IMG/VR virus record: IMGVR_UViG_2744054914_000003
Strand: one strand, 5' to 3'
Source: a virus
Lineage: Duplodnaviria > Heunggongvirae > Uroviricota > Caudoviricetes
Length of the DNA stretch: 42,128 nucleotides
The notes below the pieces were generated by a model, which was not told where the DNA came from, searched no databases, and saw only the letters and a list, made by a program, of their open reading frames with translations. Positions 3,532-16,068 of the stretch are shown piece after piece. Every line of letters starts with the position of its first letter. Positions within the stretch are counted from its first letter, which is position 1. Position numbers and translations under genes: made by a program.

Positions 3532-4410
3532 ATGACCTCAGCTTATACAGATGTCCAGCAAGAAGAAAATATTACTGATAAATTAGTTGTTAAATATGAT
3601 GGTCCCGCACTAGCAGATCATAAAATAGATTTGGATGTTTTAACTGAGTCATTGAATGGACTAAACAACTTGCTTAAAGAAGTTAATTTGGTTGTCAATG
3701 GCACTAGTGAGTGTATTAATGTTGAGGTTGAGCCTTTTAAGGAAGGCTCATTTGAGTATTTGATTGATGTTATTCAAAATCCACTTGACCATTTGAATAT
3801 ATTAAGCATTATTGGGCTTGGAGGTACAACTGCACTCGCAGCAGGAAATACTCTCATTGACTTAATTCGTCAGATCAATGGTAGGCAAATAAAACGGTTG
3901 ACTTTAACAGCGGAAGGAGACTGTAAAATAGTTATGGATGATGGTGAGGAAATTATAGCCCCGTCATATTTCCGGCCTTTACTTGCCTCACCAAGCATAC
4001 GCAAATCCTTATCGAAGTTAATTCATAATCCTTTGCAAAAGGAAGGATACGAATCGCTTAAAATTTCAACTCAACAGGGGGTTGAGCTGATTAAGGTGCA
4101 CGAAGATAATATTGAACCGTTCAGATATAGGCGCGTTCCTGTAGTGCAGTCCTTGTCTGAAAGGGTGATTGAAGAGGCTCTAATCACATTTTTGACTATT
4201 CATAAGGATAAAAACACAGGCTGGCGAGTCAACTATGGCGATGACACAATCAGCGTGTCTATAGAAGATACTGAGTTCTTACAACGTGTTAGTACGGGAA
4301 GAGAACCTGGTGTTTTTAGTGATGCTTACTGCGTTGATTTGCTCGTCCGTGAGAACTTGAATTCGCTGGACAAAACGTACATAGTTGTTAAAGTACACGG
4401 TATCTTATAG
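3532..4410 (+). CDS. Hypothetical soluble protein, gene 1 of AT-rich three-gene moron
   Basis: 292-aa ORF, ATG preceded by AAGGAACA; about 30-35% GC against >50% in flanking phage genes; no hydrophobic helix or catalytic motif recognised by eye. Confidence 0.6.
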   Translation: MTSAYTDVQQEENITDKLVVKYDGPALADHKIDLDVLTESLNGLNNLLKEVNLVVNGTSECINVEVEPFKEGSFEYLIDVIQNPLDHLNILSIIGLGGTTALAAGNTLIDLIRQINGRQIKRLTLTAEGDCKIVMDDGEEIIAPSYFRPLLASPSIRKSLSKLIHNPLQKEGYESLKISTQQGVELIKVHEDNIEPFRYRRVPVVQSLSERVIEEALITFLTIHKDKNTGWRVNYGDDTISVSIEDTEFLQRVSTGREPGVFSDAYCVDLLVRENLNSLDKTYIVVKVHGIL

Positions 4411-4433: not shown

Positions 4434-4682
4434 ATGATTGCTTTTGCTTTTTGGCTGGCTTTTTTTAGCCTGCTTCCCGTACTATATTGGGTTCTTAAGA
4501 TGGGGTTTGACCGGTTACGCTTTGCGCTTATGCCTAAACATCATCTTGTTCTTGAATGTGTTGACTCAGAAGGAGTTGTCCGTCGCGATGTCGTTGATGT
4601 CTCTTCTGATGATGAATTTTACAAAATTGCAATGAATGCCATTCGTGCTGGAAGATCAGTCAAAGGAGGGACGTTTGAGTAG
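4434..4682 (+). CDS. Small membrane protein, gene 2 of AT-rich moron
   Basis: 82-aa ORF, ATG preceded by GGGGAGGGGG; N-terminal hydrophobic helix (IAFAFWLAFFSLLPVLYWVL) then charged soluble tail; stop TAG at 4680-4682 overlaps next gene's start. Confidence 0.5.
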   Translation: MIAFAFWLAFFSLLPVLYWVLKMGFDRLRFALMPKHHLVLECVDSEGVVRRDVVDVSSDDEFYKIAMNAIRAGRSVKGGTFE

Positions 4683-5205
4683 CGCTTCTAAACCTGATAG
4701 CTACGAAAAAGTCCCTCTGATTTCTAATGTTGCTGCTGGTGGCATCACTGGTTTTTTAACATTACTGGTGTCCTCGTGGGACGGTCGTTTTCCGTATATT
4801 GGTTCTGATTTAAATACAATAAAGCCATTTCTTTTATTAATGCTTCCCAGTTGCGCTATGTTTCTGGCGCATTGGATAAAGTCGATTGGGTTTAAATGGT
4901 CCTTAGGTAGCGTTAATCGACAGTTATTAAGCATTAATAAGAAGAAAGAAAAAGAACTTCGCCGTGATATTGAAAAGTACAAAAATGTTATTTCTAATGA
5001 AAAGATAGAGGACTTTAAAAGTCAACTTGAACAAGTATTACAAGATCGTCATGATATTATTTCTAATAATTACGCACAGAAACTAAGAGAAAGAAATTAT
5101 ACGCAAGAAAAATATCATGAGCATAAACAAACCGCTGCAAATGATAATATTGAGCTGCAAAGCATACTGGAGAATCAGAAGTTCAATCAAAAAGGCATTG
5201 ACTAA
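4675..5205 (+). CDS. Membrane protein with two hydrophobic helices and K/E-rich coiled-coil C-terminus, gene 3 of AT-rich moron
   Basis: In-frame TTG at 4675 lies 5 nt after strong AAGGAGGG and overlaps gene 2 stop by 8 nt; alternative ATG at 4636 lacks a ribosome-binding site. Hydrophobic segments (VAAGGITGFLTLLVSSW; FLLLMLPSCAMFLAHWI). Confidence 0.5.
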   Translation: MSSASKPDSYEKVPLISNVAAGGITGFLTLLVSSWDGRFPYIGSDLNTIKPFLLLMLPSCAMFLAHWIKSIGFKWSLGSVNRQLLSINKKKEKELRRDIEKYKNVISNEKIEDFKSQLEQVLQDRHDIISNNYAQKLRERNYTQEKYHEHKQTAANDNIELQSILENQKFNQKGID

Positions 5206-8095: not shown

Positions 8096-8725
8096 ATGCA
8101 TATGATCCAATACTTGATTGACCATACAGAGCATCTGGAGAAAATAGCTGGATATATTTTTTCATGTTTGATTGTTATGGGAGTCTGGATAAGAAAGATC
8201 ATTTTTAATTATAAGTATAAAGAGCCTAAATATGTCAAGAAGTTAATTTTATATTTAGTTAAGTATGAACGTTATCTGGATAAGGAGGATAAGAGTGCCA
8301 TAGAAAAAAGAATAAATGATAAAATTATTCGTGATGCGCTGAAATTGCAATCTTCTTATAACCGAAGTGATGTTATTTACATTTGCAATAGATTAGAAAA
8401 AAGACAGTATATAAATCAGGTGATTAAGCTTCAGAATTATATAGAGAAAGATAACGGAGTGTTTTTCATCAATGTTAATTTTTCAGGTTTTTTATTTATT
8501 ATTAGTCGTCTGTTTTCCTTTCTGTGTTTTGTGCTGTTTATCCTTTTTTCTATTATCTGCATTATTTCCATAGGGCAAAATGAAGGCCTTTTAAATTATC
8601 TTGTGTATATGGTTATGACAATAGTTTTAGAGACTGTTGGTTTTTGGATGTATGATACTTTCCCGTCTAAGAAGAAGATCTGTGAACTAAATAAAGAATT
8701 GAGGAAGATTAAGATTCCTGAGTGA
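8096..8725 (+). CDS. Hypothetical membrane protein (AT-rich moron, opposite strand to the replication operon)
   Basis: 209-aa ORF in strongly AT-rich DNA between two minus-strand replication genes; hydrophobic segments at N-terminus and C-terminal third (FLFIISRLFSFLCFVLFILFSIICIISIG; LVYMVMTIVLETVGFWMY). Confidence 0.5.
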   Translation: MHMIQYLIDHTEHLEKIAGYIFSCLIVMGVWIRKIIFNYKYKEPKYVKKLILYLVKYERYLDKEDKSAIEKRINDKIIRDALKLQSSYNRSDVIYICNRLEKRQYINQVIKLQNYIEKDNGVFFINVNFSGFLFIISRLFSFLCFVLFILFSIICIISIGQNEGLLNYLVYMVMTIVLETVGFWMYDTFPSKKKICELNKELRKIKIPE

Positions 8726-8777: not shown

Positions 8778-9326
8778 TTAAATCAGTGCTTCAGCATCAG
8801 CACCTTCGCTGATATCGTCGAAATCGTCAGCGCTTGCCACTCCGCCGCCAGCGAATGCATCGCCGTCTCGCAGGAACTGGACTCCGCCGAGTGAGGCATT
8901 AATGCGTTTACCGAAATTATTGTCCTGTGCCCAGATATCGATAACGGCGTTTACATAGCACCCTGCATAGGGACGTCCATCAGCCTGAATAAGTGGCGAA
9001 CGATCGCGATCAAGAACAGCTGGGCGCGCTTTGTTAGCAGCATTCAGGAAGAAATTGCCGGGGAAGCCTTCATACTCTGCTTTTTCATCACCATCATGCA
9101 GGCACAGATTGAGTTTTTTCTCCAGTTGGTTATAAATGGGCTCCCACTTCTCTCCCCATTTTTCCTTCGCTACCTGCTTCATAGCTTTACGGATTTCTTC
9201 CAGTTGTGGGTGTTTGGGTGACATTAAAAATACTGCGGAGAAACGTGGATCGCCTTCGCCGTTTACAGTTTTAGCTTCAAACAGAGACGGGAAGGCCAGA
9301 CGAACATTGTTCAGCTTCAGTTTCAT
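8778..9326 (-). CDS. DUF2815-like phage protein (SSB-like, as recalled)
   Basis: 182-aa ORF with acidic C-terminal tail (DDFDDISEGADAEALI); sits between DUF2800-like and polymerase genes as in the recalled module. Confidence 0.6.
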   Translation of the reverse strand: MKLKLNNVRLAFPSLFEAKTVNGEGDPRFSAVFLMSPKHPQLEEIRKAMKQVAKEKWGEKWEPIYNQLEKKLNLCLHDGDEKAEYEGFPGNFFLNAANKARPAVLDRDRSPLIQADGRPYAGCYVNAVIDIWAQDNNFGKRINASLGGVQFLRDGDAFAGGGVASADDFDDISEGADAEALI

Positions 9327-9341
9327 GGGTATTTCCTTAAA

Positions 9342-10643
9342 TCAGATGAGGTCTGCGGTTAGCGTATCGTCGGATACGTCGTCGAAATCATTTACAGGGT
9401 TGATATTGAGTGCGGGGCGTGGGTCTGACTCGGGAACGATGGTGGGTTTACCATCAGCTCGTGTTATCAGTGCCTCGACTTTTGACCAACGGCGCGGACT
9501 GGCCTTTTTGATAAGTTTTTCGGCTTTTGTGGGGCTAATAAGTTTAAAGTCGAATACTTCTTCAGTTTTGTACCTGAACTGGTCCTTCAGAAGTGCGCGA
9601 GCTGCCTCTTCATCACTCCAGGCCCGGTTACCTTGTTTTCCTGTTACCAGTTTAAACCCCGGTACCGGATGTCCGGCATTGAGTTCATTGTGAACCCGGT
9701 CTCGTACTGCCTTTAGCCAGGATTCAATAAAGTCGGCCTGGCTATAGATCTCCGCAAGCTGCTCAATGGTTAACAGAGGTACACGTGCGCTGGCATTGGA
9801 GATTATTTCGCTGACAGGCTTTGTCAGATCTTCAAAATCGCTGGCCGCTGTTTGTAAATGCTGCATTTTCTGGGCAGTGCAAATAGCTTTTGCTTTACAG
9901 AAGCGGCACTGTTTTTCTCCAGGTATGAAGTTTTCCAGCGGTAGTGTCTCAATGCCTTCGCATTCAGCAATATTGAGAACAAGGATCGCACTGGTTGCGG
10001 CCTCCAGTGCCCGTTCACCGAAAGACTGAAGTTCCTGTACGGTTAACGACCATTCTGAAACGTGGTTGAGCCTTGGCTGGTGAATAAATAATCTTACAGT
10101 CTCAAAGTCATACAGCATGCTGAATTGTTCGAGCGCACCCAGAGCATACAGTTGTAGTTGCTCATTTTGTTCTGCATCAATGCGGACGCCTTTGCCATAT
10201 TTCAGGTCGTGGATTTGTAATTCGCTACCAGCAATGATTATGCCGTCGGCAGTTCCGAAAGATTCTTCCACACCCGTTATATGTGAGAAATCAACACGTT
10301 GTTCAACCAATAGTTCATTATTCTGTGCAAGAGTCCAGACCGTATCAACATACCGGCCAACGGCTTCGACCATTTCATCATCCACCTGTGGGCCAGATGT
10401 ATCATCAGGATTTTCGCGAAGGGGGTATGAGCCGAGAAACATAGAAACATTGCATCCGGCGTAGTGTTCCGGGTAGCTTTGCCTGTTTCGTAGAACTTTT
10501 TCAGCAAGCGCGTGCGCTGCAGTGCCCTCGATTGCAAAAGTTGTTTCTTTATCCGGTTGTGTGGCCTCCAGCGCCAGACTTCCTGGGCAGCGCATCCATC
10601 GATGCGCTGATGATGGAGAAAGTTGTGCATGAACGTCTGGCAT
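9342..10643 (-). CDS. DUF2800-like PD-(D/E)xK nuclease (Cas4-like)
   Basis: 433-aa ORF with N-terminal [15 protein letters not shown] motif and C-terminal cysteine cluster ([10 protein letters not shown]). Confidence 0.65.
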
Positions 10644-10645
10644 GA

Positions 10646-11548
10646 TTAACCCTCCAGTGCTTTTTCAGCCAGGGTGATTACTTCAGCGAGATTTTCATCC
10701 GTTACTTCACCAAGTTTCCTGGCTCCCTGTTTTTCCAGAATTGCAATAGCTTCTGCCCGGTAACCCCCTTTTGCTAACTGGAGGATCAACCCTTCAGCTT
10801 GTTTGCGTAGTGCCGCGAAATCAATTGTATGGTCATCTTTGGCGTCATGATTCTGGCTGGAATTTGCTGCGTCTCTGCGTGCAAATTCTTCTTGCAGCTG
10901 AAGGTACTCAACACGGTTGATCTCGATATGGCCTTTTTTCAGCATCTCGTTCAACTTGCGTAAGGTGTGGAGTTCACTGGCTGCTGTGCCGGATACATTT
11001 TTGACGTAAAACGGCCCCGTGCGTTCTCCATCTTTGTTACTGGCCTTTTTCGGCTTAACTTCATCACGCCCATCCGCAGGTGCATCAAGTAGCTGCTCGG
11101 CAAAAACACGTCGCTCGCCGATGGTTGGCAGGTCGTCCCAGAACTTAAGGATGTTACGGGACAGGTCCAGGAGAGCAGGTTTAAGCAGCGCCCTGGCTCG
11201 TTTGACGCCCTGCAATGCGCTGTCGAGAGCATCAATCTGAACTACTCGTTTATCGCCTTCAGCATCACGGTAGGCAACAGCACGTTGCAGCATGTCTTCT
11301 GTGATAGGGGTGGCTACCGGGTAGAAACCAGCCAGTGCGATAACGTCGCTGAACTCCAGATCATCCAGTGTCATTGCCGCTGACATATTTTCAGTTTCAG
11401 TTGCTGTATCCCGACATTCCTGCACTCGTGAAATCGTGTCAGGATGCATAACAATGCCTGATGCCATTGTGCGGATAAGACGTTCAAGCAGCGCATTATG
11501 TTGTGCCAGAAGTTGATTATTAAGTTCGAGACTGGTTTCTAAACTCAT
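10646..11548 (-). CDS. Hypothetical early phage protein
   Basis: 300-aa ORF, same strand and contiguous with the replication module; no motif recognised. Confidence 0.45.
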
Positions 11549-11727
11549 ACTGTGGTCCTCGCTACAAGGAGAATGAAAGTGATGATCAGACCGAGCGCAG
11601 TGGCAACGGCCAGACCGGTCATCAAATCGAAGTTTTTACGGCGATAACGGAGAACATCGCGCCCCGTCAGTCGATGGGGGTATTCAGGTTTCATCGGTTG
11701 TATTCCTTTTTTCATATCGGGGAGCAC
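11545..11727 (-). CDS. Small membrane protein (first gene of leftward early operon)
   Basis: 60-aa ORF with C-terminal hydrophobic helix (LAVATALGLIITFILLVA). Confidence 0.35.
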   Translation of the reverse strand: MLPDMKKGIQPMKPEYPHRLTGRDVLRYRRKNFDLMTGLAVATALGLIITFILLVARTTV

Positions 11728-11756
11728 GCTGTTGCGAGTGCGCTTTCAGACATAAA

Positions 11757-11790
11757 AAAGCCCGTCACTTGAGGCGGGCAAAGGCTACAC
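11757..11790 (-). terminator. Putative rho-independent terminator (minus strand)
   Basis: On the minus strand: GCCCG...CGGGC stem followed by TTTTTTAT. Confidence 0.4.
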
Positions 11791-11850
11791 ACAGCAATTA
11801 CTTGGATGTCAGCGAATGCCTGCTTTTAACCACGTCAGACGAGATGGCTC

Positions 11851-11901
11851 TCTCTGTACCCCTACAGCGAGAATTCGGCTAATATCTCTTTACCCCTATA
11901 G
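11851..11901. promoter_or_regulatory. Two 17-bp direct repeats (TCTCTKTACCCCTAYAG), putative operator or promoter element
   Basis: Copies at 11851-11867 and 11885-11901, two mismatches, immediately upstream of the 11919 start codon. Confidence 0.45.
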
Positions 11902-11918
11902 TTTTAGAGAGAATTAAG

Positions 11919-12443
11919 ATGTCTGAAGAAAAAGGACTTGTACGGCGTATAACTGAGGCGGCCACTAGTGCTGGTGGTGCTTTGAAAGGTGCTGTTGATT
12001 TAGCAAAAGAAGTTAATGCGTTGCAGGTGGATTACAATGTTAAAAGTAAAACTATCGATCTACTTGATAAACTAATTGATGCGCGTACTGGACAATTCGC
12101 ACTAACGGAGCTTTTGAACGAAGCTAAACAGCGCATTGTTGAACTCGAATCCCTTCTGGAAAAGAAACAGGATTGGGATAGTGAGAAAATGAACTATGAA
12201 ATGTACCACCCGATTACCAATACGGTGGTCTATGTACTGAAGCCTACTGACGATCCTGAGTTCAAGCCTCATTATCTTTGTACTACATGCTATGAGTCGG
12301 GTATGAAGTCTATACTTCAATACCATACTTCTAATGCCGCTTATAAAATTCTCAAGTGTCATAAATGCTCCGCTGAATATAAATTTCCCCGAAATATAGA
12401 AGTCAGTGGCAAAACTCCTGCACCGTTACAACCTGCCAGATGA
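11919..12443 (+). CDS. Hypothetical coiled-coil protein with C-terminal CxxC...CxxC zinc ribbon (immunity-region moron)
   Basis: 174-aa ORF, ATG at 11919; motif CTTCYESG...CHKCSAEY; about 40% GC; opposite strand to flanking early genes and cI. Confidence 0.55.
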   Translation: MSEEKGLVRRITEAATSAGGALKGAVDLAKEVNALQVDYNVKSKTIDLLDKLIDARTGQFALTELLNEAKQRIVELESLLEKKQDWDSEKMNYEMYHPITNTVVYVLKPTDDPEFKPHYLCTTCYESGMKSILQYHTSNAAYKILKCHKCSAEYKFPRNIEVSGKTPAPLQPAR

Positions 12444-12537
12444 TTAGCAGTTCTCTTTGGTGGTGGTGTAGTGGTAGATGCTGAACTTCGGATTGACTCA
12501 ATGGACTGATCTTCACCCCACCCCAAAAGGAACTAAG

Positions 12538-12558
12538 CGCCCCATCGTCGGGGCGTTT
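12538..12558 (+). terminator. Weak putative terminator downstream of the 11919-12443 gene
   Basis: CGCCCC-ATCGTC-GGGGCG hairpin followed by a short TTT run. Confidence 0.35.
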
Positions 12559-12809
12559 CAACTTGCGTGACTTATCAGTTTGTCGCGGTGTTGTCCTCTA
12601 CGCTTACCGTACGCATACGGACTCGGCGCTTACCTCGATCCCATCGGGTGCTATTTCGTTTTGCCAGGAGTACTGCGGCTTACCTGTCACGCGGTTCAGT
12701 TTGTTAAAGAGCCAGTATTAAAAAACGCATTAATTATGCGATATCGTATTTATATGCGTTATGGGATTTTGTGTCAATACGAAAATGAATTATTTTGCAA
12801 ATAAGAAAA

Positions 12810-12836
12810 CCGCCCTTGTGGAGAGCGGTTTGATCA
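12810..12836 (-). terminator. Putative rho-independent terminator of the repressor gene
   Basis: On the minus strand: AACCGC...GCGGTT stem followed by a U-rich run, directly after the cI stop at 12862. Confidence 0.45.
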
Positions 12837-12861: not shown

Positions 12862-13536
12862 TTAGTACATACGTAGCGCGGATTTGGCGATCCCCGCCAC
12901 GTAATGGATTTTTTCAATGTTTTCGCGTGGTACTCTGACTGGTGGATGATCTTCATTTACAGACATTAGATGGAACAGGCCATCGCGTTCGAACAAGAAG
13001 GTTTTAACCATGACCTCACCTTCCCGGGTAACCACAAGTACTTCATCACCAGGAGTGTAGTCGTGGTTGGGTTCGACGATTACGAACTCCCCCTCTTTGA
13101 TTCTAGGCATCATTGAATCACCAACACATTTCAGGGCGTATGCATCTTCATCCTTTGTCGGCCAGTATATGAAACCATCACTGCTACCTACTGAATATTG
13201 GGTGTCGCTCCAAAGTCCTCCAACGCCTAGCTGAGTGTTTCCCAAAACAGGTACTTTATTAAACCTAAGAGAAATATACGTTTTTATACCTGTCGCGTCC
13301 TCTTTCTCCAGTTCTTGAAGGCTCCTTTCTGCCAAGTCTATTGGTGACACGTGGAAGTAGTCGGCGATCTGCTTTAACGTTGCGTATTTCGGATCTTTCA
13401 CCTCTCCTGATACCAGCCTGTGTAGCGTTGGTTGGTTCAGCTGTAACCGACGTGCCAGCTCAGTTATCGAGCTTATCTTGGCTTTGTCCATCAGGTACTT
13501 GATGTTTTGAGAAAGGATATCGGTAGTATCAATCAT
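12862..13536 (-). CDS. cI: CI-like phage repressor (HTH N-terminus, S24 LexA-like peptidase C-terminus)
   Basis: 224-aa ORF; HTH region (SITELARRLQLNQPTLHRLVSG); S24-type domain with Ser (GDSM) and Lys (VMVKTF) regions; divergent from a cro-like gene. Confidence 0.85.
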   Translation of the reverse strand: MIDTTDILSQNIKYLMDKAKISSITELARRLQLNQPTLHRLVSGEVKDPKYATLKQIADYFHVSPIDLAERSLQELEKEDATGIKTYISLRFNKVPVLGNTQLGVGGLWSDTQYSVGSSDGFIYWPTKDEDAYALKCVGDSMMPRIKEGEFVIVEPNHDYTPGDEVLVVTREGEVMVKTFLFERDGLFHLMSVNEDHPPVRVPRENIEKIHYVAGIAKSALRMY

Positions 13537-13677
13537 TTGGATTCATCCATGTTGTATACAGGGACGGTGATTATGCGTTATCGGATATTTTAATCTAGGA
13601 TGACATAGAATTGCTGTATTGCTGAGTAATCCGTTTTCGTATAAATTTGCGCTATAGACGAAAGTGGAGACTTAAAT
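13537..13677. promoter_or_regulatory. Divergent promoter/operator region between repressor and cro (PRM/PR-like)
   Basis: 141-bp AT-rich intergenic region between divergent HTH regulator genes, with short palindromes (TGTATACA; TTTCGT...ACGAAA). Confidence 0.5.
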
Positions 13678-13878
13678 ATGTCCGGACTAACACCACAAGA
13701 GATGGTCAAAAGCTTGATTGATTCAGGGTATACCCAAAACCAAATTGCCGAAATTGCAGGCGTGAAGCAGTCTTCTATTAGTCGGCTTCTTACCGGGGTT
13801 CATTCTGACCCTCGCTTTTCTACAGTACGTGCGATAGAAAAACTTTTTCAGGAAGTGACAGCTAGACAAAAGGTGTAA
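13678..13878 (+). CDS. cro: Cro-like HTH regulator
   Basis: 66-aa ORF with HTH (YTQNQIAEIAGVKQSSISRLL), first gene of rightward early operon. Confidence 0.7.
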   Translation: MSGLTPQEMVKSLIDSGYTQNQIAEIAGVKQSSISRLLTGVHSDPRFSTVRAIEKLFQEVTARQKV

Positions 13879-13881
13879 CCC

Positions 13882-16068
13882 ATGTCCGATAGCAAACCAT
13901 GGGGAGCTACGCCTGATGAGTGGTTTCATTTCGACCTGGTATTGGGGCGGACTGCTCATCTTCTCCCAGTTGTATGTAACCCCAGTGCGACCATATCCCC
14001 TGATAGTAAATTGAAAGCGTTGGGTAAGACGCCGAGTCGCTATAACCGGGACCGCCAGGTCACAGGTATTGCTCAATGGACCGGGCATGTTGTTACTGAG
14101 CATGATTTTGCCCGCTGGTCGAATGAACCGGATTATGGCATCTGCGTGCGTACAGGCCATGGCTGGCTGGCGCTGGACTGCGATAGCGAAGATGAAGACA
14201 TTCAGGCAGATATTCGCAAAACACTTGTGCAACTTCTGGGTGAGTCGCCGCCGCGACGCTGGCGAGCAAACAGTAATAAGTGTCTGTATCTGCTGGCCGT
14301 TGATGGTGATTTCCGTAAGCGTATCCATCGCCTGGCGGGGGATATGGGCATTATCGAGTTGCTGGCGAACGGGCAGCAGTTCGTTGCCTGTGGTACGCAC
14401 AGCAGCGGCGCGCGTATTGAATGGGACGGTGGTTTGCCGGATGAACCTCCGGCTATTACAGGTGAGCAGCTTGAAACGCTGTGGCAGCGCCTGGCTGAAC
14501 AACTCCCTGTGTCGGTAACCACCGAAGCGGGCAACACGAAGATGCGCGACCGTTCAGCATTCACGCCCGGCGCGACGGATGATACAGCTGAATATCTTGA
14601 TGCCAATGGCTGGACGCTGCTGGATGGCGCAAACGGTGAACGATATATCCGCTGTCCGTTTGAAGACGGCCACAGTAGCGGAGGCGATCCAACAAGCACA
14701 GTTTATTTTCCTGCGGGAACCGCAGGCTTTGAGCAGGGGCATTTTAAATGCCTGCATGCCAGTTGCGCGCATCGTGATGACGGAGATTTCCTGAATGCCA
14801 TCGGGATCCGCAACGACGATTTCGAAGATCTGACCAGCATCGAAGTGGCGGAACCTTTACCGCTGCCTGCTTTCGAGCGTGATAAATGGGGGCGTATCGA
14901 GGCAACCATCAGCAATGCAGCCAAAGCAGTAGTACGCTCTGATTTTGTGGACATCGATATTCGCTTTGACCAGTTCCGCGACGAAATCATGTTTGCCCCG
15001 GCAGGATCCGGACAATGGCGGGCATTCACCGATGCGGATTATGCGCGCCTGCGCATCACGATGGAAAAGCGGGGATTTAAACCTGTTGGCCGTGAACTTA
15101 TTCGCGATGTGGTGTTACTTGCAGCCGATGAACAACCATTCGATTCAGCGATCACCTGGCTGAACGGACTGGAGTGGGATGGCGTGCCGCGCATCGAATG
15201 TTTCTACCATACGCACTTCGGTACCGCCGACACGCCTTATACCCGTGCGGTGTCTATGTACATGTGGACCGCGTTGGCGGGGCGAGTACTGGAGCCAGGC
15301 ATCAAAGCGGATATGGTGCCGATCCTCGTTGGTCCGCAGGGCTGCGGTAAGTCTTCCGGAGTGGAGGCACTGAGCCCTGATCCTGCGTTTTTTACTGAAA
15401 TCTCTTTTGCCGAAAAAGACGATGATCTCGCTCGAAAAATGCGTGGTCGGCTGGTGGCAGAGATTGGTGAACTGCGCGGACTTAATACCAAAGAGCTGGA
15501 GTCAATCAAAGCGTTTGTGACGCGTACTCACGAAAACTGGATCCCGAAATACCGGGAGTTCGCCACCCAGTTTCCTCGTCGCCTGGTGTTCGTTGGTACC
15601 ACTAATGAGGACGAATTCCTTGCGGACAAGACTGGTAACCGTCGCTGGCTCCCCGTGGAAGTGTCGAAAGTCGACGTGAAAGCGATAAAAAGAGATCTCC
15701 TTTTACTTTGGGCTGAGGCTCGTGAGGTGTTTCAGCGTCTGGGGGGTATCCAGTTCCGTGAGGCTGAACAACTGGCAGCGAGTGTCCATGAACAGTACAC
15801 CATCAAGGATGCTTGGCTTGAAACGGTAGAGAAATGGCTCGACACGCCCGACCTGATGACTAATGAACTTCCGCGAAATTGCGAATTTTTACGCGCAAGT
15901 GATGTTTTGCGTGATGCGATTGGGCTAAATCCTGACCGCATCGGAAAACGCGAAGAAATGCGAATTAGTAATGTTTTGCAAAATTGCGGGTATAAGCGTG
16001 CCCAAAGGCGAATTGGGGGGAAAAAATGCAAGGTTTGGGAACCGCTGGAACCACGCGGAACCACCTAG
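13882..16068 (+). CDS. Replication initiator: Prim-Pol-type primase fused to P-loop NTPase (VirE/D5-like helicase)
   Basis: 728-aa ORF; Walker A (LVGPQGCGKSS) in C-terminal half; N-terminal half with acidic Prim-Pol-like motifs; iterons overlap its 3' end. Confidence 0.75.
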   Translation: MSDSKPWGATPDEWFHFDLVLGRTAHLLPVVCNPSATISPDSKLKALGKTPSRYNRDRQVTGIAQWTGHVVTEHDFARWSNEPDYGICVRTGHGWLALDCDSEDEDIQADIRKTLVQLLGESPPRRWRANSNKCLYLLAVDGDFRKRIHRLAGDMGIIELLANGQQFVACGTHSSGARIEWDGGLPDEPPAITGEQLETLWQRLAEQLPVSVTTEAGNTKMRDRSAFTPGATDDTAEYLDANGWTLLDGANGERYIRCPFEDGHSSGGDPTSTVYFPAGTAGFEQGHFKCLHASCAHRDDGDFLNAIGIRNDDFEDLTSIEVAEPLPLPAFERDKWGRIEATISNAAKAVVRSDFVDIDIRFDQFRDEIMFAPAGSGQWRAFTDADYARLRITMEKRGFKPVGRELIRDVVLLAADEQPFDSAITWLNGLEWDGVPRIECFYHTHFGTADTPYTRAVSMYMWTALAGRVLEPGIKADMVPILVGPQGCGKSSGVEALSPDPAFFTEISFAEKDDDLARKMRGRLVAEIGELRGLNTKELESIKAFVTRTHENWIPKYREFATQFPRRLVFVGTTNEDEFLADKTGNRRWLPVEVSKVDVKAIKRDLLLLWAEAREVFQRLGGIQFREAEQLAASVHEQYTIKDAWLETVEKWLDTPDLMTNELPRNCEFLRASDVLRDAIGLNPDRIGKREEMRISNVLQNCGYKRAQRRIGGKKCKVWEPLEPRGTT

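What the first reader, a model, noticed from the sequence alone, without database searches (positions are those of the whole stretch)
11728..12560. Oppositely oriented coiled-coil/zinc-ribbon gene in the immunity region, at the position of lambda rexAB/sieB
Seen in sequence: a 174-aa ORF with a predicted N-terminal coiled coil and a C-terminal CxxC-x22-CxxC zinc ribbon, at about 40% GC, on the strand opposite both the repressor and the leftward early operon. It sits between a minus-strand terminator after cI (12810-12836) and another at 11757-11790, and has its own weak terminator. Established knowledge: the interval between the repressor and the early-left operon is where lambda carries rexAB and other lambdoid phages carry exclusion genes expressed in the lysogen. 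Inference: a lysogen-expressed accessory gene such as an exclusion factor or regulator.
Basis: partly seen in the sequence, partly recalled or inferred. Interest (0 to 1): 0.6.

Follow-up and report, generated by a model that had tools for sequence, protein, structure and literature searches.

The report
Prophage Rip1 pore-forming anti-phage gene
The 174-codon gene is a real, uncharacterised member of the recently described Rip1 family, a prophage protein that senses the ring-shaped packaging proteins of an invading phage and punches a pore in the host membrane, so the finding is sound but falls into a known kind.

Summary
The ORF is real: 11919..12443 (+), 174 aa, CTTC-x22-CHKC, 41% GC, on the strand opposite both the repressor and the early-left operon. 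It belongs to the Rip1 family ("ring interacting pore 1"). It is 46% identical to phage HK446 Rip1, whose complex with the T6 small terminase is solved (PDB 9OOX; phmmer E=8e-45, Foldseek E=6e-11). It is 29% identical to Pseudomonas phage JBD30 gp30, a phage-resistance moron. Rip1 is a single-protein abortive-infection defence: twelve copies ring an invading phage's small-terminase or portal oligomer, and the N-terminal amphipathic helices form a membrane pore. The slot is the sieB slot: about 105 bp upstream match the region upstream of sieB in lambdoid prophages and of HK446 rip1. The gene lies antisense inside the roughly 1 kb leader of the pL transcript. Bases 11937-12525 form a swappable cassette: sister phages have 97-98% identical flanks but an allele only 44% identical. 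The "terminator at 11757-11790" belongs to a module that copies the 3' domain of the host sRNA RprA (23/24 core bases). Expression in the lysogen, the trigger and the self-immunity mechanism remain untested. Verdict: new member of a known kind.

The parts
11919..12443 (+). rip1-family CDS, 174 aa. The N-terminal half is helical or amphipathic (1-92). The C-terminal half is a four-Cys beta domain (93-157).
   Evidence: ORF list. phmmer against PDB sequences hits 9oox_L 'ring interacting pore 1 (Rip1)' at E=8.4e-45 over residues 3-159. Foldseek hits 9oox_M at E=5.7e-11. phrog_1244 matches at E=1.8e-43. AF2 model has pLDDT 77.
11813..11918 (+). Upstream expression region shared with sieB and with other rip1 alleles. 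It presumably holds the promoter and 5'UTR and includes the SD-like GAGAGA at 11907-11912.
   Evidence: Alignment A5 with the O157 sieB upstream region, HK446 rip1 and the 606R2 allele. blastn gives about 800 E. coli genomes at 83% identity.
11880..11885 (+). Candidate -10 hexamer TAATAT. The T1, A2, A3 and T6 positions are invariant in all four cassettes. There is no good -35.
   Evidence: Invariant columns of A5. The consensus scan did not call it. This is an inference.
11857..11901 (+). Two direct repeats TACCCCTAYAG (11857-11867 and 11891-11901), 34 nt apart, flanking the candidate -10. They are conserved in the sieB and rip1 cassettes. Their function is unknown.
   Evidence: (D3).
11937..12525 (+). 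Exchangeable allele cassette: nearly the whole CDS after codon 6 plus 82 nt of 3' sequence.
   Evidence: blastn of the window against phage 606R2: identity is 96.9% up to 11936 and 98.3% from 12526, with nothing alignable between. The alleles are 44% identical at protein level.
12535..12567 (+). The gene's own weak intrinsic terminator: a 9-bp stem followed by UUUCAACUU. It lies in the conserved right flank of the cassette.
   Evidence: Fold gives -16.5 kcal/mol, z=-1.7. It is conserved in 606R2.
12749..12777 (-). Candidate early-left promoter pL: TTGACA (12777-12772), 17 nt, TATAAA (12754-12749). Its transcript runs antisense through rip1.
   Evidence: Read from the sequence. It contains an inverted copy of the pR region (I1). 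A promoter sits at the equivalent place in a related prophage (L006). The scan missed it because it requires T at the sixth position of the -10.
12735..12770 (.). Two operator-like repeats (TATGCGnTATnGnAT). A third copy lies in the cI-cro intergenic region at 13572-13589.
   Evidence: Repeat family D1.
12807..12831 (-). Intrinsic terminator of the repressor gene.
   Evidence: Scan. Fold gives z=-4.3.
11750..11863 (-). RprA-like module at the end of the pL leader. Only the 3' domain (about 11808-11750) is truly RprA-like: the core AAUUGCUGUGUGUAGCCUUUGCCC plus the terminator at 11790-11757.
   Evidence: Rfam RF00034 scores 45.5 bits against a gathering score of 70, E=9e-5. 23 of 24 core bases are identical to K-12 RprA nt 59-82, and 24 of 24 in two related prophages, with a compensatory A-U to G-C change in the stem.

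Best explanation
The gene encodes a Rip1-family ('ring interacting pore 1') anti-phage protein carried by an APSE-like E. coli prophage.

Proposed mechanism, by homology:
- The lysogen makes the protein from its own weak promoter, and the protein is harmless alone.
- When another phage infects and makes its ring-shaped small terminase (or portal), the C-terminal four-Cys domain of about twelve Rip1 copies docks around that ring.
- The N-terminal amphipathic helices then assemble into a pore in the inner membrane.
- The cell collapses before progeny mature, which is abortive infection.

Shown here:
- Family membership by sequence and by predicted fold.
- Conservation of the domain plan and of the four Cys.
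- Prophage and moron context.
- The antisense position inside the pL leader.
- Allele swapping at this slot.

Inferred:
- Expression in the lysogen.
- Pore formation by this particular allele.
- Which phages trigger it.
- That leftward early transcription from pL damps rip1 during the prophage's own lytic growth, because it runs antisense across the gene.
For: Homology to characterised Rip1 proteins:
- phmmer against all PDB chains gives a single hit, 9oox_L 'ring interacting pore 1 (Rip1)', at E=8.4e-45 over residues 3-159 of 174.
- The AF2 model matches 9oox_M/L ('HK446 Rip1 in complex with T6 small terminase') at Foldseek E=5.7e-11, 46% identity, TM 0.63 normalised to the target. The next hit has E=0.7.
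- HK446_037 is that protein's gene.
- JBD30 gp30 aligns over residues 17-152 at pairwise E=2e-21. It also aligns to HK446 Rip1 at E=9e-27. It is listed as a phage-resistance moron (PMC11445458 Appendix Table S1).

Published mechanism (review PMC13434031 citing Patel et al. 2026, Nature 651:1060):
- A 12-mer of Rip1 surrounds an 11-mer small-terminase ring.
- The N-terminal amphipathic helix forms the pore and the C-terminal half contacts the ring.
- The protein is not toxic alone.
- Escape mutations map to the portal or the small terminase.
- Most homologues are in prophages.

Features of this protein and its locus:
- The highest hydrophobic moment lies in residues 1-35 (0.4-0.49).
- C121, C124, C147, C150, W86, Y93, Y105 and H118 are 92% or more conserved in 158 representatives.
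- The context is the same in other taxa: next to N in a Pantoea lambdoid prophage, beside the repressor in Edwardsiella, and in the identical slot in Arsenophonus APSE-like prophages.
- The low-GC cassette has 97-98% identical flanks but a 44% identical allele in sister phages. That pattern is typical of arms-race genes.
Against: - No functional data exist for this allele, which is only 46% identical to the studied E. coli Rip1 and 29% to the Pseudomonas one.
- No consensus sigma-70 promoter was found upstream. There is only a conserved TAAnnT with no -35, so expression in the lysogen is unproven.
- PADLOC (2023), Pfam and NCBIfam hold no model for the family, so membership rests on one solved homologue and one review. 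The primary paper could not be read.
- An earlier description of JBD30 gp30 calls it a block of genome injection, which disagrees with the pore model.
- Zinc binding by the four Cys is inferred only.
Confidence: 0.85

Rival explanations
1. It is a superinfection-exclusion protein that blocks entry of incoming phage DNA at the envelope (the classical Sie mechanism), not an abortive pore.
For: The JBD30 homologue gp30 is listed as 'blocks phage genome injection (Tsao et al. 2018)' in PMC11445458. The gene uses the same upstream cassette and slot as sieB.
Against: - The later structural and genetic work, as summarised in PMC13434031, places the trigger late: small terminase and portal, both morphogenesis products. 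It also shows pore formation and cell rounding.
- PDB 9OOX is a complex with a small terminase, which is made after DNA entry.
- No transmembrane segment or signal peptide is evident in the sequence.
- SieB itself is an abortive system, not an entry block (my own knowledge).
Confidence: 0.07
2. It is a zinc-ribbon nucleic-acid-binding regulator of the immunity region, for example an antirepressor or a modulator of pL.
For: It has a four-Cys motif and a long helix, and it sits between the repressor and the early-left operon. There is a weak DM DNA-binding domain hit at E=0.13.
Against: - That Pfam hit is far below threshold.
- The full-length homologue has a solved complex with a phage small terminase and is named a pore.
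- The same family sits between terminase genes in Pseudomonas Mu-like phages, where it cannot be an immunity regulator.
- A related prophage lacks the gene at this slot altogether (L006).
Confidence: 0.03
3. It serves the phage's own lytic cycle, for example by timing lysis or assisting packaging through binding its own terminase ring.
For: Rip1 binds terminase rings. [quoted passage not shown]
Against: - In every context examined the gene is antisense to the surrounding lytic operon.
- A related prophage lacks the gene at this slot and alleles are exchanged freely, so it is dispensable.
- The resident small terminase is assigned to Pfam Terminase_2. To my knowledge that is not the family of the T6 protein in the solved complex. 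No interaction with it is known.
Confidence: 0.03

Closest known systems
Rip1 of Escherichia phage HK446 (HK446_037; PDB 9OOX, complex with T6 small terminase; Patel et al. 2026, Nature 651:1060)
   Same: Full-length homology: 46-47% identity over residues 3-159. It has the same N-terminal helical half and four-Cys C-terminal half. It shares the conserved N-terminus MS(E/D)EKG. It has the same upstream cassette (alignment A5). It has the same orientation, antisense within the pL operon of a temperate enterobacterial phage.
   Different: More than half the residues differ, so trigger specificity may differ. The host phage here is an APSE-like type (DNA pol A, DUF2800, VapE primase) rather than a lambdoid siphovirus. 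The gene sits in an untranslated pL leader next to the repressor rather than overlapping the end of N.
JBD30 gp30 and its orthologues in DMS3, D3112 (orf25) and MP38 (Pseudomonas Casadabanvirus Rip1-type moron)
   Same: Homologous over residues 17-152 with all four Cys and the W/Y/H landmarks. It is a single antisense gene inside a lytic operon. It is reported to give phage resistance.
   Different: Only 29% identity. [quoted passage not shown] Escapers there map to the portal rather than the small terminase.
SieB (superinfection exclusion B) of P22, lambda and lambdoid prophages
   Same: Same genomic slot and orientation, and about 105 bp of homologous upstream DNA including the two TACCCCTACAG repeats. 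Both are prophage genes that abort other phages. P22 sieB is controlled by an antisense RNA (sas) from the infecting phage (my own knowledge of Ranade and Poteete 1993; mentioned in PMC5415839).
   Different: The proteins are not homologous: no SieB Pfam hit was found. No internal Esc-type start is conserved here: M90 and M95 are not conserved.
Tab (JBD26 gp31) with anti-Tab
   Same: A prophage moron on the opposite strand in the same terminase-gene slot as Pseudomonas rip1. It has its own promoter and its defence acts late on virion morphogenesis.
   Different: Tab is an unrelated 83-aa protein. It blocks tail assembly through the tape measure protein. It has a dedicated anti-Tab partner, and no partner gene is seen next to this rip1.
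RexAB of lambda
   Same: A prophage-encoded abortive system that depolarises the membrane, located near the repressor (established knowledge).
   Different: RexAB has two components, is co-transcribed with cI on the same strand, and lies between cI and pL. This gene is single, converges on cI, and lies beyond pL.

Membership tests
Rip1 (ring interacting pore 1) | Full-length sequence homology to an experimentally characterised Rip1 | tested here: met
   9oox_L at E=8.4e-45 over query 3-159. tblastn to HK446 gives 47.5% identity at E=5e-43. JBD30 gp30 aligns at E=2e-21.
Rip1 (ring interacting pore 1) | Fold: N-terminal helical part plus a C-terminal domain matching the solved Rip1 chain | tested here: met
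   AF2 model has pLDDT 77, with the C-terminal domain at 88-91. Foldseek to 9oox_M gives E=5.7e-11 over 123 aligned columns, and no other hit is below E=0.6.
Rip1 (ring interacting pore 1) | N-terminal amphipathic helix able to form the pore | tested here: inconclusive
   Residues 1-35 have the highest helical hydrophobic moment of the protein (0.4-0.49), and helices are predicted at 3-16 and 21-34. Model confidence there is only 56-63, and membrane insertion cannot be computed.
Rip1 (ring interacting pore 1) | Single-gene system in a prophage, set apart from the surrounding operon | tested here: met
   Opposite strand, own terminator, low GC, and no co-oriented partner gene. The prophage carries an integrase, repressor, terminase and portal.
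Rip1 (ring interacting pore 1) | Binds an oligomeric ring of small terminase or portal as a roughly 12-mer and permeabilises membranes; harmless without the trigger | not testable with these tools
   Known only for HK446 and Pseudomonas Rip1. It needs biochemistry or cryo-EM.
Rip1 (ring interacting pore 1) | Confers resistance to phages; escapers map to small terminase or portal | not testable with these tools
   Needs plaque assays with this allele.
SieB | Homology to the SieB protein | tested here: not met
   No Pfam or NCBIfam SieB hit at E up to 1-10. Only the upstream DNA is shared.
RexAB-type locus | Co-transcription with the repressor from pRM, on the same strand, between cI and pL | tested here: not met
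   The gene is on the opposite strand and converges on cI. A terminator follows cI, and the candidate pL lies between cI and the gene.
Zinc ribbon | Two CxxC knuckles on beta hairpins that coordinate zinc | tested here: inconclusive
   CTTC-x22-CHKC lies within predicted strands 132-157. The Cys are 99-100% conserved. Metal binding was not tested and model coordinates were not inspectable.
RprA sRNA (RF00034), for the adjacent minus-strand module | Score at or above Rfam's gathering threshold over the whole model | tested here: not met
   45.5 bits against 70. Only the 3' domain matches: 23 of 24 core bases plus the terminator.

The most novel reading that the evidence does not exclude
Lambdoid and APSE-like phages share one portable 'exclusion-gene socket' with three parts:
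- A conserved upstream region with two TACCCCTACAG repeats.
- An exchangeable cargo (sieB, or any of several rip1 alleles).
- A conserved terminator.

The socket always sits antisense in the pL transcript. The prophage's own early transcription would then switch the suicide gene off, in the manner of P22 sas/sieB.

In this phage family the same pL leader ends in a copy of the 3' seed-and-terminator domain of the host sRNA RprA. Induction would therefore release an RprA mimic that acts on Hfq or on RprA targets.
Probability: 0.2. Interest if true: 0.6.

Novelty: new member of a known kind. Interest (0 to 1): 0.35.

Why it matters
It gives a name and a testable mechanism to a gene annotated as 'hypothetical protein' in at least 27 complete E. 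coli genomes. These include ETEC H10407 and O103:H2 12009.

The Rip1 family has more than 2700 clusters at 50% identity and still has no Pfam, NCBIfam or PADLOC model.

The allele swap between otherwise 97-98% identical phages offers a natural set of specificity variants. These could be used to ask which terminase or portal rings each Rip1 recognises.

The shared sieB/rip1 upstream cassette and the antisense placement suggest how prophages avoid killing themselves with such a protein. The sources I could read do not address that point.

Tried and rejected
- Profile libraries. Pfam, NCBIfam and PADLOC gave only sub-threshold noise (CCDC22 coiled coil, DM domain, PDC-M27A). PHROGs gave only 'unknown function' (phrog_1244).
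- Tab homology. I considered it because the Pseudomonas homologues sit in the Tab slot. I rejected it because Tab is an unrelated 83-aa protein.
- Esc-like internal start, as in sieB. M90 and M95 are not conserved in the family, so I rejected it.
- Consensus promoter scan. It found no promoter upstream of the gene. It also missed the candidate pL, because the tool requires T at the sixth base of the -10.
- Self-immunity. The resident small terminase is Pfam Terminase_2 and the portal is Phage_portal_3. Nothing can be concluded from this.
- Papers I could not read. Tsao et al. 2018 (PMC6199475) and Patel et al. 2026 (doi 10.1038/s41586-025-10075-1) are not held. The mechanism is therefore taken from a review, a conference report and the PDB title.
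- Literature search for a phage RprA-like sRNA. It found nothing relevant.
- Whole-element fold of the RprA-like region. It is not unusually stable (z=-1.0). The 5' half of the Rfam hit is really the antisense of the sieB-type upstream region, so I do not call the whole 114 nt an RprA homologue.

Full report
**1. The observation**

The ORF exists as described. It runs 11919..12443 on the + strand, starts with ATG and encodes 174 codons. An SD-like GAGAGA lies 7-12 nt upstream. The motif CTTC-x22-CHKC reads directly from the translation.

Its GC content is 0.41, against 0.494 for the window and 0.497 for the neighbouring left-operon gene.

The neighbours are:
- An HTH/S24 repressor at 12862..13536 (-) and a Cro-like gene at 13678..13878 (+).
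- A VapE-type primase at 13882..16068 (+).
- A leftward operon at 8778..11727 (-): a 60-aa gene, a 300-aa gene, DUF2800 and DUF2815.

The three terminators check out as follows:
- The repressor's terminator at 12831-12807 (-) is strong.
- The gene's own hairpin at 12535-12558 is followed by UUUCAACUU and is weak (-16.5 kcal/mol, z=-1.7).
- The minus-strand hairpin with T-run at 11790-11757 is real but needs reinterpreting (section 4).

**2. What the protein is**

Pfam, NCBIfam and PADLOC gave nothing significant. PHROGs placed it in phrog_1244, 'unknown function', at E=1.8e-43.

tblastn against phage genomes found homologues in three places:
- (a) Sister phages vB_EcoM-606R2, 689R2, 611R5 and 683R1.
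- (b) The lambdoid phage HK446 (HK446_037, 47.5% identity).
- (c) About 30 Pseudomonas Mu-like Casadabanviruses, including JBD30, DMS3, D3112 orf25 and MP38 (about 30% identity).

An AF2 model built from ten homologues had pLDDT 77, with the C-terminal domain at 88-91. It shows helices 3-16, 21-34 and 39-92, followed by a beta-rich domain that carries the four Cys.

Foldseek against the PDB returned one meaningful target: 9OOX chains M and L, 'Cryo-EM structure of the Escherichia phage HK446 Rip1 in complex with the Enterobacteria phage T6 small terminase'. The score was E=5.7e-11 at 46% identity, and the next hit had E=0.7. A sequence search of PDB chains gave the same single hit, 'ring interacting pore 1 (Rip1)', at E=8.4e-45 over residues 3-159.

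JBD30 gp30 aligns to the window protein over residues 17-152 (E=2e-21). It also aligns to HK446 Rip1 (E=9e-27).

A profile search of 1.84 billion cluster representatives found 2710 family members at E<=1e-3. Nearly all are 150-180 aa. In 158 of them the four Cys are 99-100% conserved. W86, Y93, Y105, H118 and L133-Q134 are 91-99% conserved.

**3. How it most likely works**

I could not read the primary paper. The account below comes from a review (PMC13434031), a meeting report (PMC12908700) and a citing paper.
- Rip1 is a prophage-encoded single protein that is not toxic alone.
- During infection, twelve Rip1 copies ring the 11-mer small-terminase ring.
- The N-terminal amphipathic helix forms a pore and the C-terminal half contacts the ring.
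- The complexes release dye from liposomes, and infected cells round up.
- Escapers map to the portal in Pseudomonas phages and to the small terminase in E. coli phages.

An older label for JBD30 gp30 is 'blocks phage genome injection' (PMC11445458 Table S1).

By homology I assign the same mechanism to this gene. The in-silico support is modest but consistent. The highest hydrophobic moment lies in residues 1-35, and the C-terminal domain is the best conserved and most confidently modelled part. Zinc binding, ring binding, pore formation and the identity of the trigger are all inferred.

**4. The locus around it**

*(a) pL and the antisense arrangement.* Operator-like repeats TATGCGnTATnGnAT occur twice at 12735-12770 and once in the cI-cro intergenic region at 13572. 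An inverted copy of the pR region lies at 12777-12800. Within it, on the minus strand, is TTGACA-17-TATAAA (12777-12749). I take this to be pL. A promoter sits at the same place in a related prophage (L006).

The early-left transcript would therefore start near 12742. It would run antisense through the whole rip1 gene before reaching the first left-operon gene at 11727.

Every other context I examined has the same logic:
- HK446 rip1 converges on and overlaps the end of N.
- A Pantoea homologue lies next to an N gene.
- Arsenophonus APSE-like prophages carry it in the identical slot.
- Pseudomonas homologues lie antisense between the terminase genes.

I infer that the gene is expressed in the lysogen and is damped by antisense transcription once the resident phage goes lytic. 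This is not shown.

*(b) Upstream region.* About 105 bp upstream of the ATG are homologous to three other sequences: the region upstream of HK446 rip1, the region upstream of the 606R2 allele, and the region upstream of sieB in an O157:H7 lambdoid prophage. The geometry is the same in all.

Conserved elements are two TACCCCTAYAG repeats and a TAAnnT hexamer at 11880-11885 that could be a -10. There is no good -35, and the scan called no promoter.

So rip1 and sieB are alternative cargos of one cassette. 'rexAB position' is not.

*(c) Allele exchange.* Against phage 606R2 the DNA is 96.9% identical up to 11936 and 98.3% identical from 12526, and is unalignable in between. The two proteins are 44% identical, with the lowest identity in the C-terminal ring-contact half (38.5%). 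Twenty-seven of 5426 complete E. coli genomes carry this allele, while 142 match at least part of the 833-bp query.

*(d) The RprA-like module.* The terminator at 11790-11757 (-) is the end of a module that Rfam scores as RprA at 45.5 bits. That is below the gathering score of 70, with E=9e-5.
- Only the 3' domain is truly similar. The core AATTGCTGTGTGTAG(C/T)CTTTGCCC is 23/24 identical to K-12 RprA nt 59-82 here. It is 24/24 identical in 606R2 and in a related prophage that has no rip1.
- The terminator stem carries a compensatory A-U to G-C change.
- The 5' half of the Rfam hit is simply the antisense of the sieB-type upstream region.
- The module belongs to the phage backbone's pL leader, not to the rip1 cassette.
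- I found no literature on it.

**5. Comparison and novelty**

This is a Rip1-family member: sequence, fold, domain plan and context were all tested and met. Function was not testable. It is not SieB, RexAB or Tab, although it shares its slot and upstream DNA with sieB.

It is a new, uncharacterised allele of a family published in 2026, hence 'new member of a known kind'. The parts that may be new are the shared sieB/rip1 socket, the consistent antisense embedding as a possible self-immunity device, and the RprA 3'-domain mimic next to it.

**6. Verdict**

It is wrong in its alternatives (regulator, rexAB analogy).
- Confidence that this is a Rip1-type defence protein is 0.85.
- Interest is 0.35. 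The gene is solidly explained by a known family, with some unexplored regulatory anatomy around it.

Noticed in passing
window 11750-11863 (-), chiefly 11750-11808: A copy of the 3' seed-and-terminator domain of the host sRNA RprA sits at the end of the pL leader. It is 23/24 identical to K-12 RprA nt 59-82, and 24/24 in two related prophages. Rfam gives 45.5-50.4 bits, below the gathering score of 70. It is present even in a relative that lacks rip1. It could be a phage-made RprA mimic or a captured terminator.
   Followed up: partly
window 12560-12710 (transcribed on the minus strand from the candidate pL): About 150 nt of pL leader are 97-98% conserved in 606R2 and present in the rip1-less prophage L006 (2040-2190). 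The stretch has three GGTAAGC(G/C) repeats and no convincing ORF. It could be a structured leader RNA, for example a put-like antitermination element that lets transcription pass the terminator at 11790-11757. It has no Rfam match.
   Followed up: no
window 3532-4410 (+): A 292-aa gene on the strand opposite its neighbours matches the PADLOC candidate defence family PDC-S42 (E=6e-40) and phrog_3243. It may be a second defence moron in the same prophage.
   Followed up: partly
window 8096-8725 (+) and 4636-5205 (+): Two more genes are on the strand opposite the left operon: 209 aa between the DNA polymerase and DUF2815 genes, and 189 aa. They match phrog_10579 and phrog_15878 (unknown function), with no Pfam or PADLOC hit. 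Both are possible morons.
   Followed up: partly
L006 2304-2497 (+) (E. coli 89-3156 prophage): Where this relative lacks rip1, the pL leader holds a small ORF with two CxxC pairs (CPAC...CPEC). Its 3' end runs into the RprA-like module.
   Followed up: no
L003 8225-8296 (-) (Pseudomonas phage JBD30, record about 9394-9465): A type II hammerhead ribozyme hit lies well above threshold (66.2 bits against 37, E=7e-12) in the early region of JBD30.
   Followed up: no
window 12726-12740: The palindrome CGCATTAATTATGCG followed by a T-run on the minus strand lies right at the predicted pL start. It is more likely an operator than a terminator.
   Followed up: no
L011/L012 5510-5929 (+) (Arsenophonus prophages): In the Arsenophonus APSE-like prophages a 108-122 aa gene follows rip1 on the same strand. 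The E. coli window has no such partner. It might be an accessory or anti-Rip1 gene.
   Followed up: no
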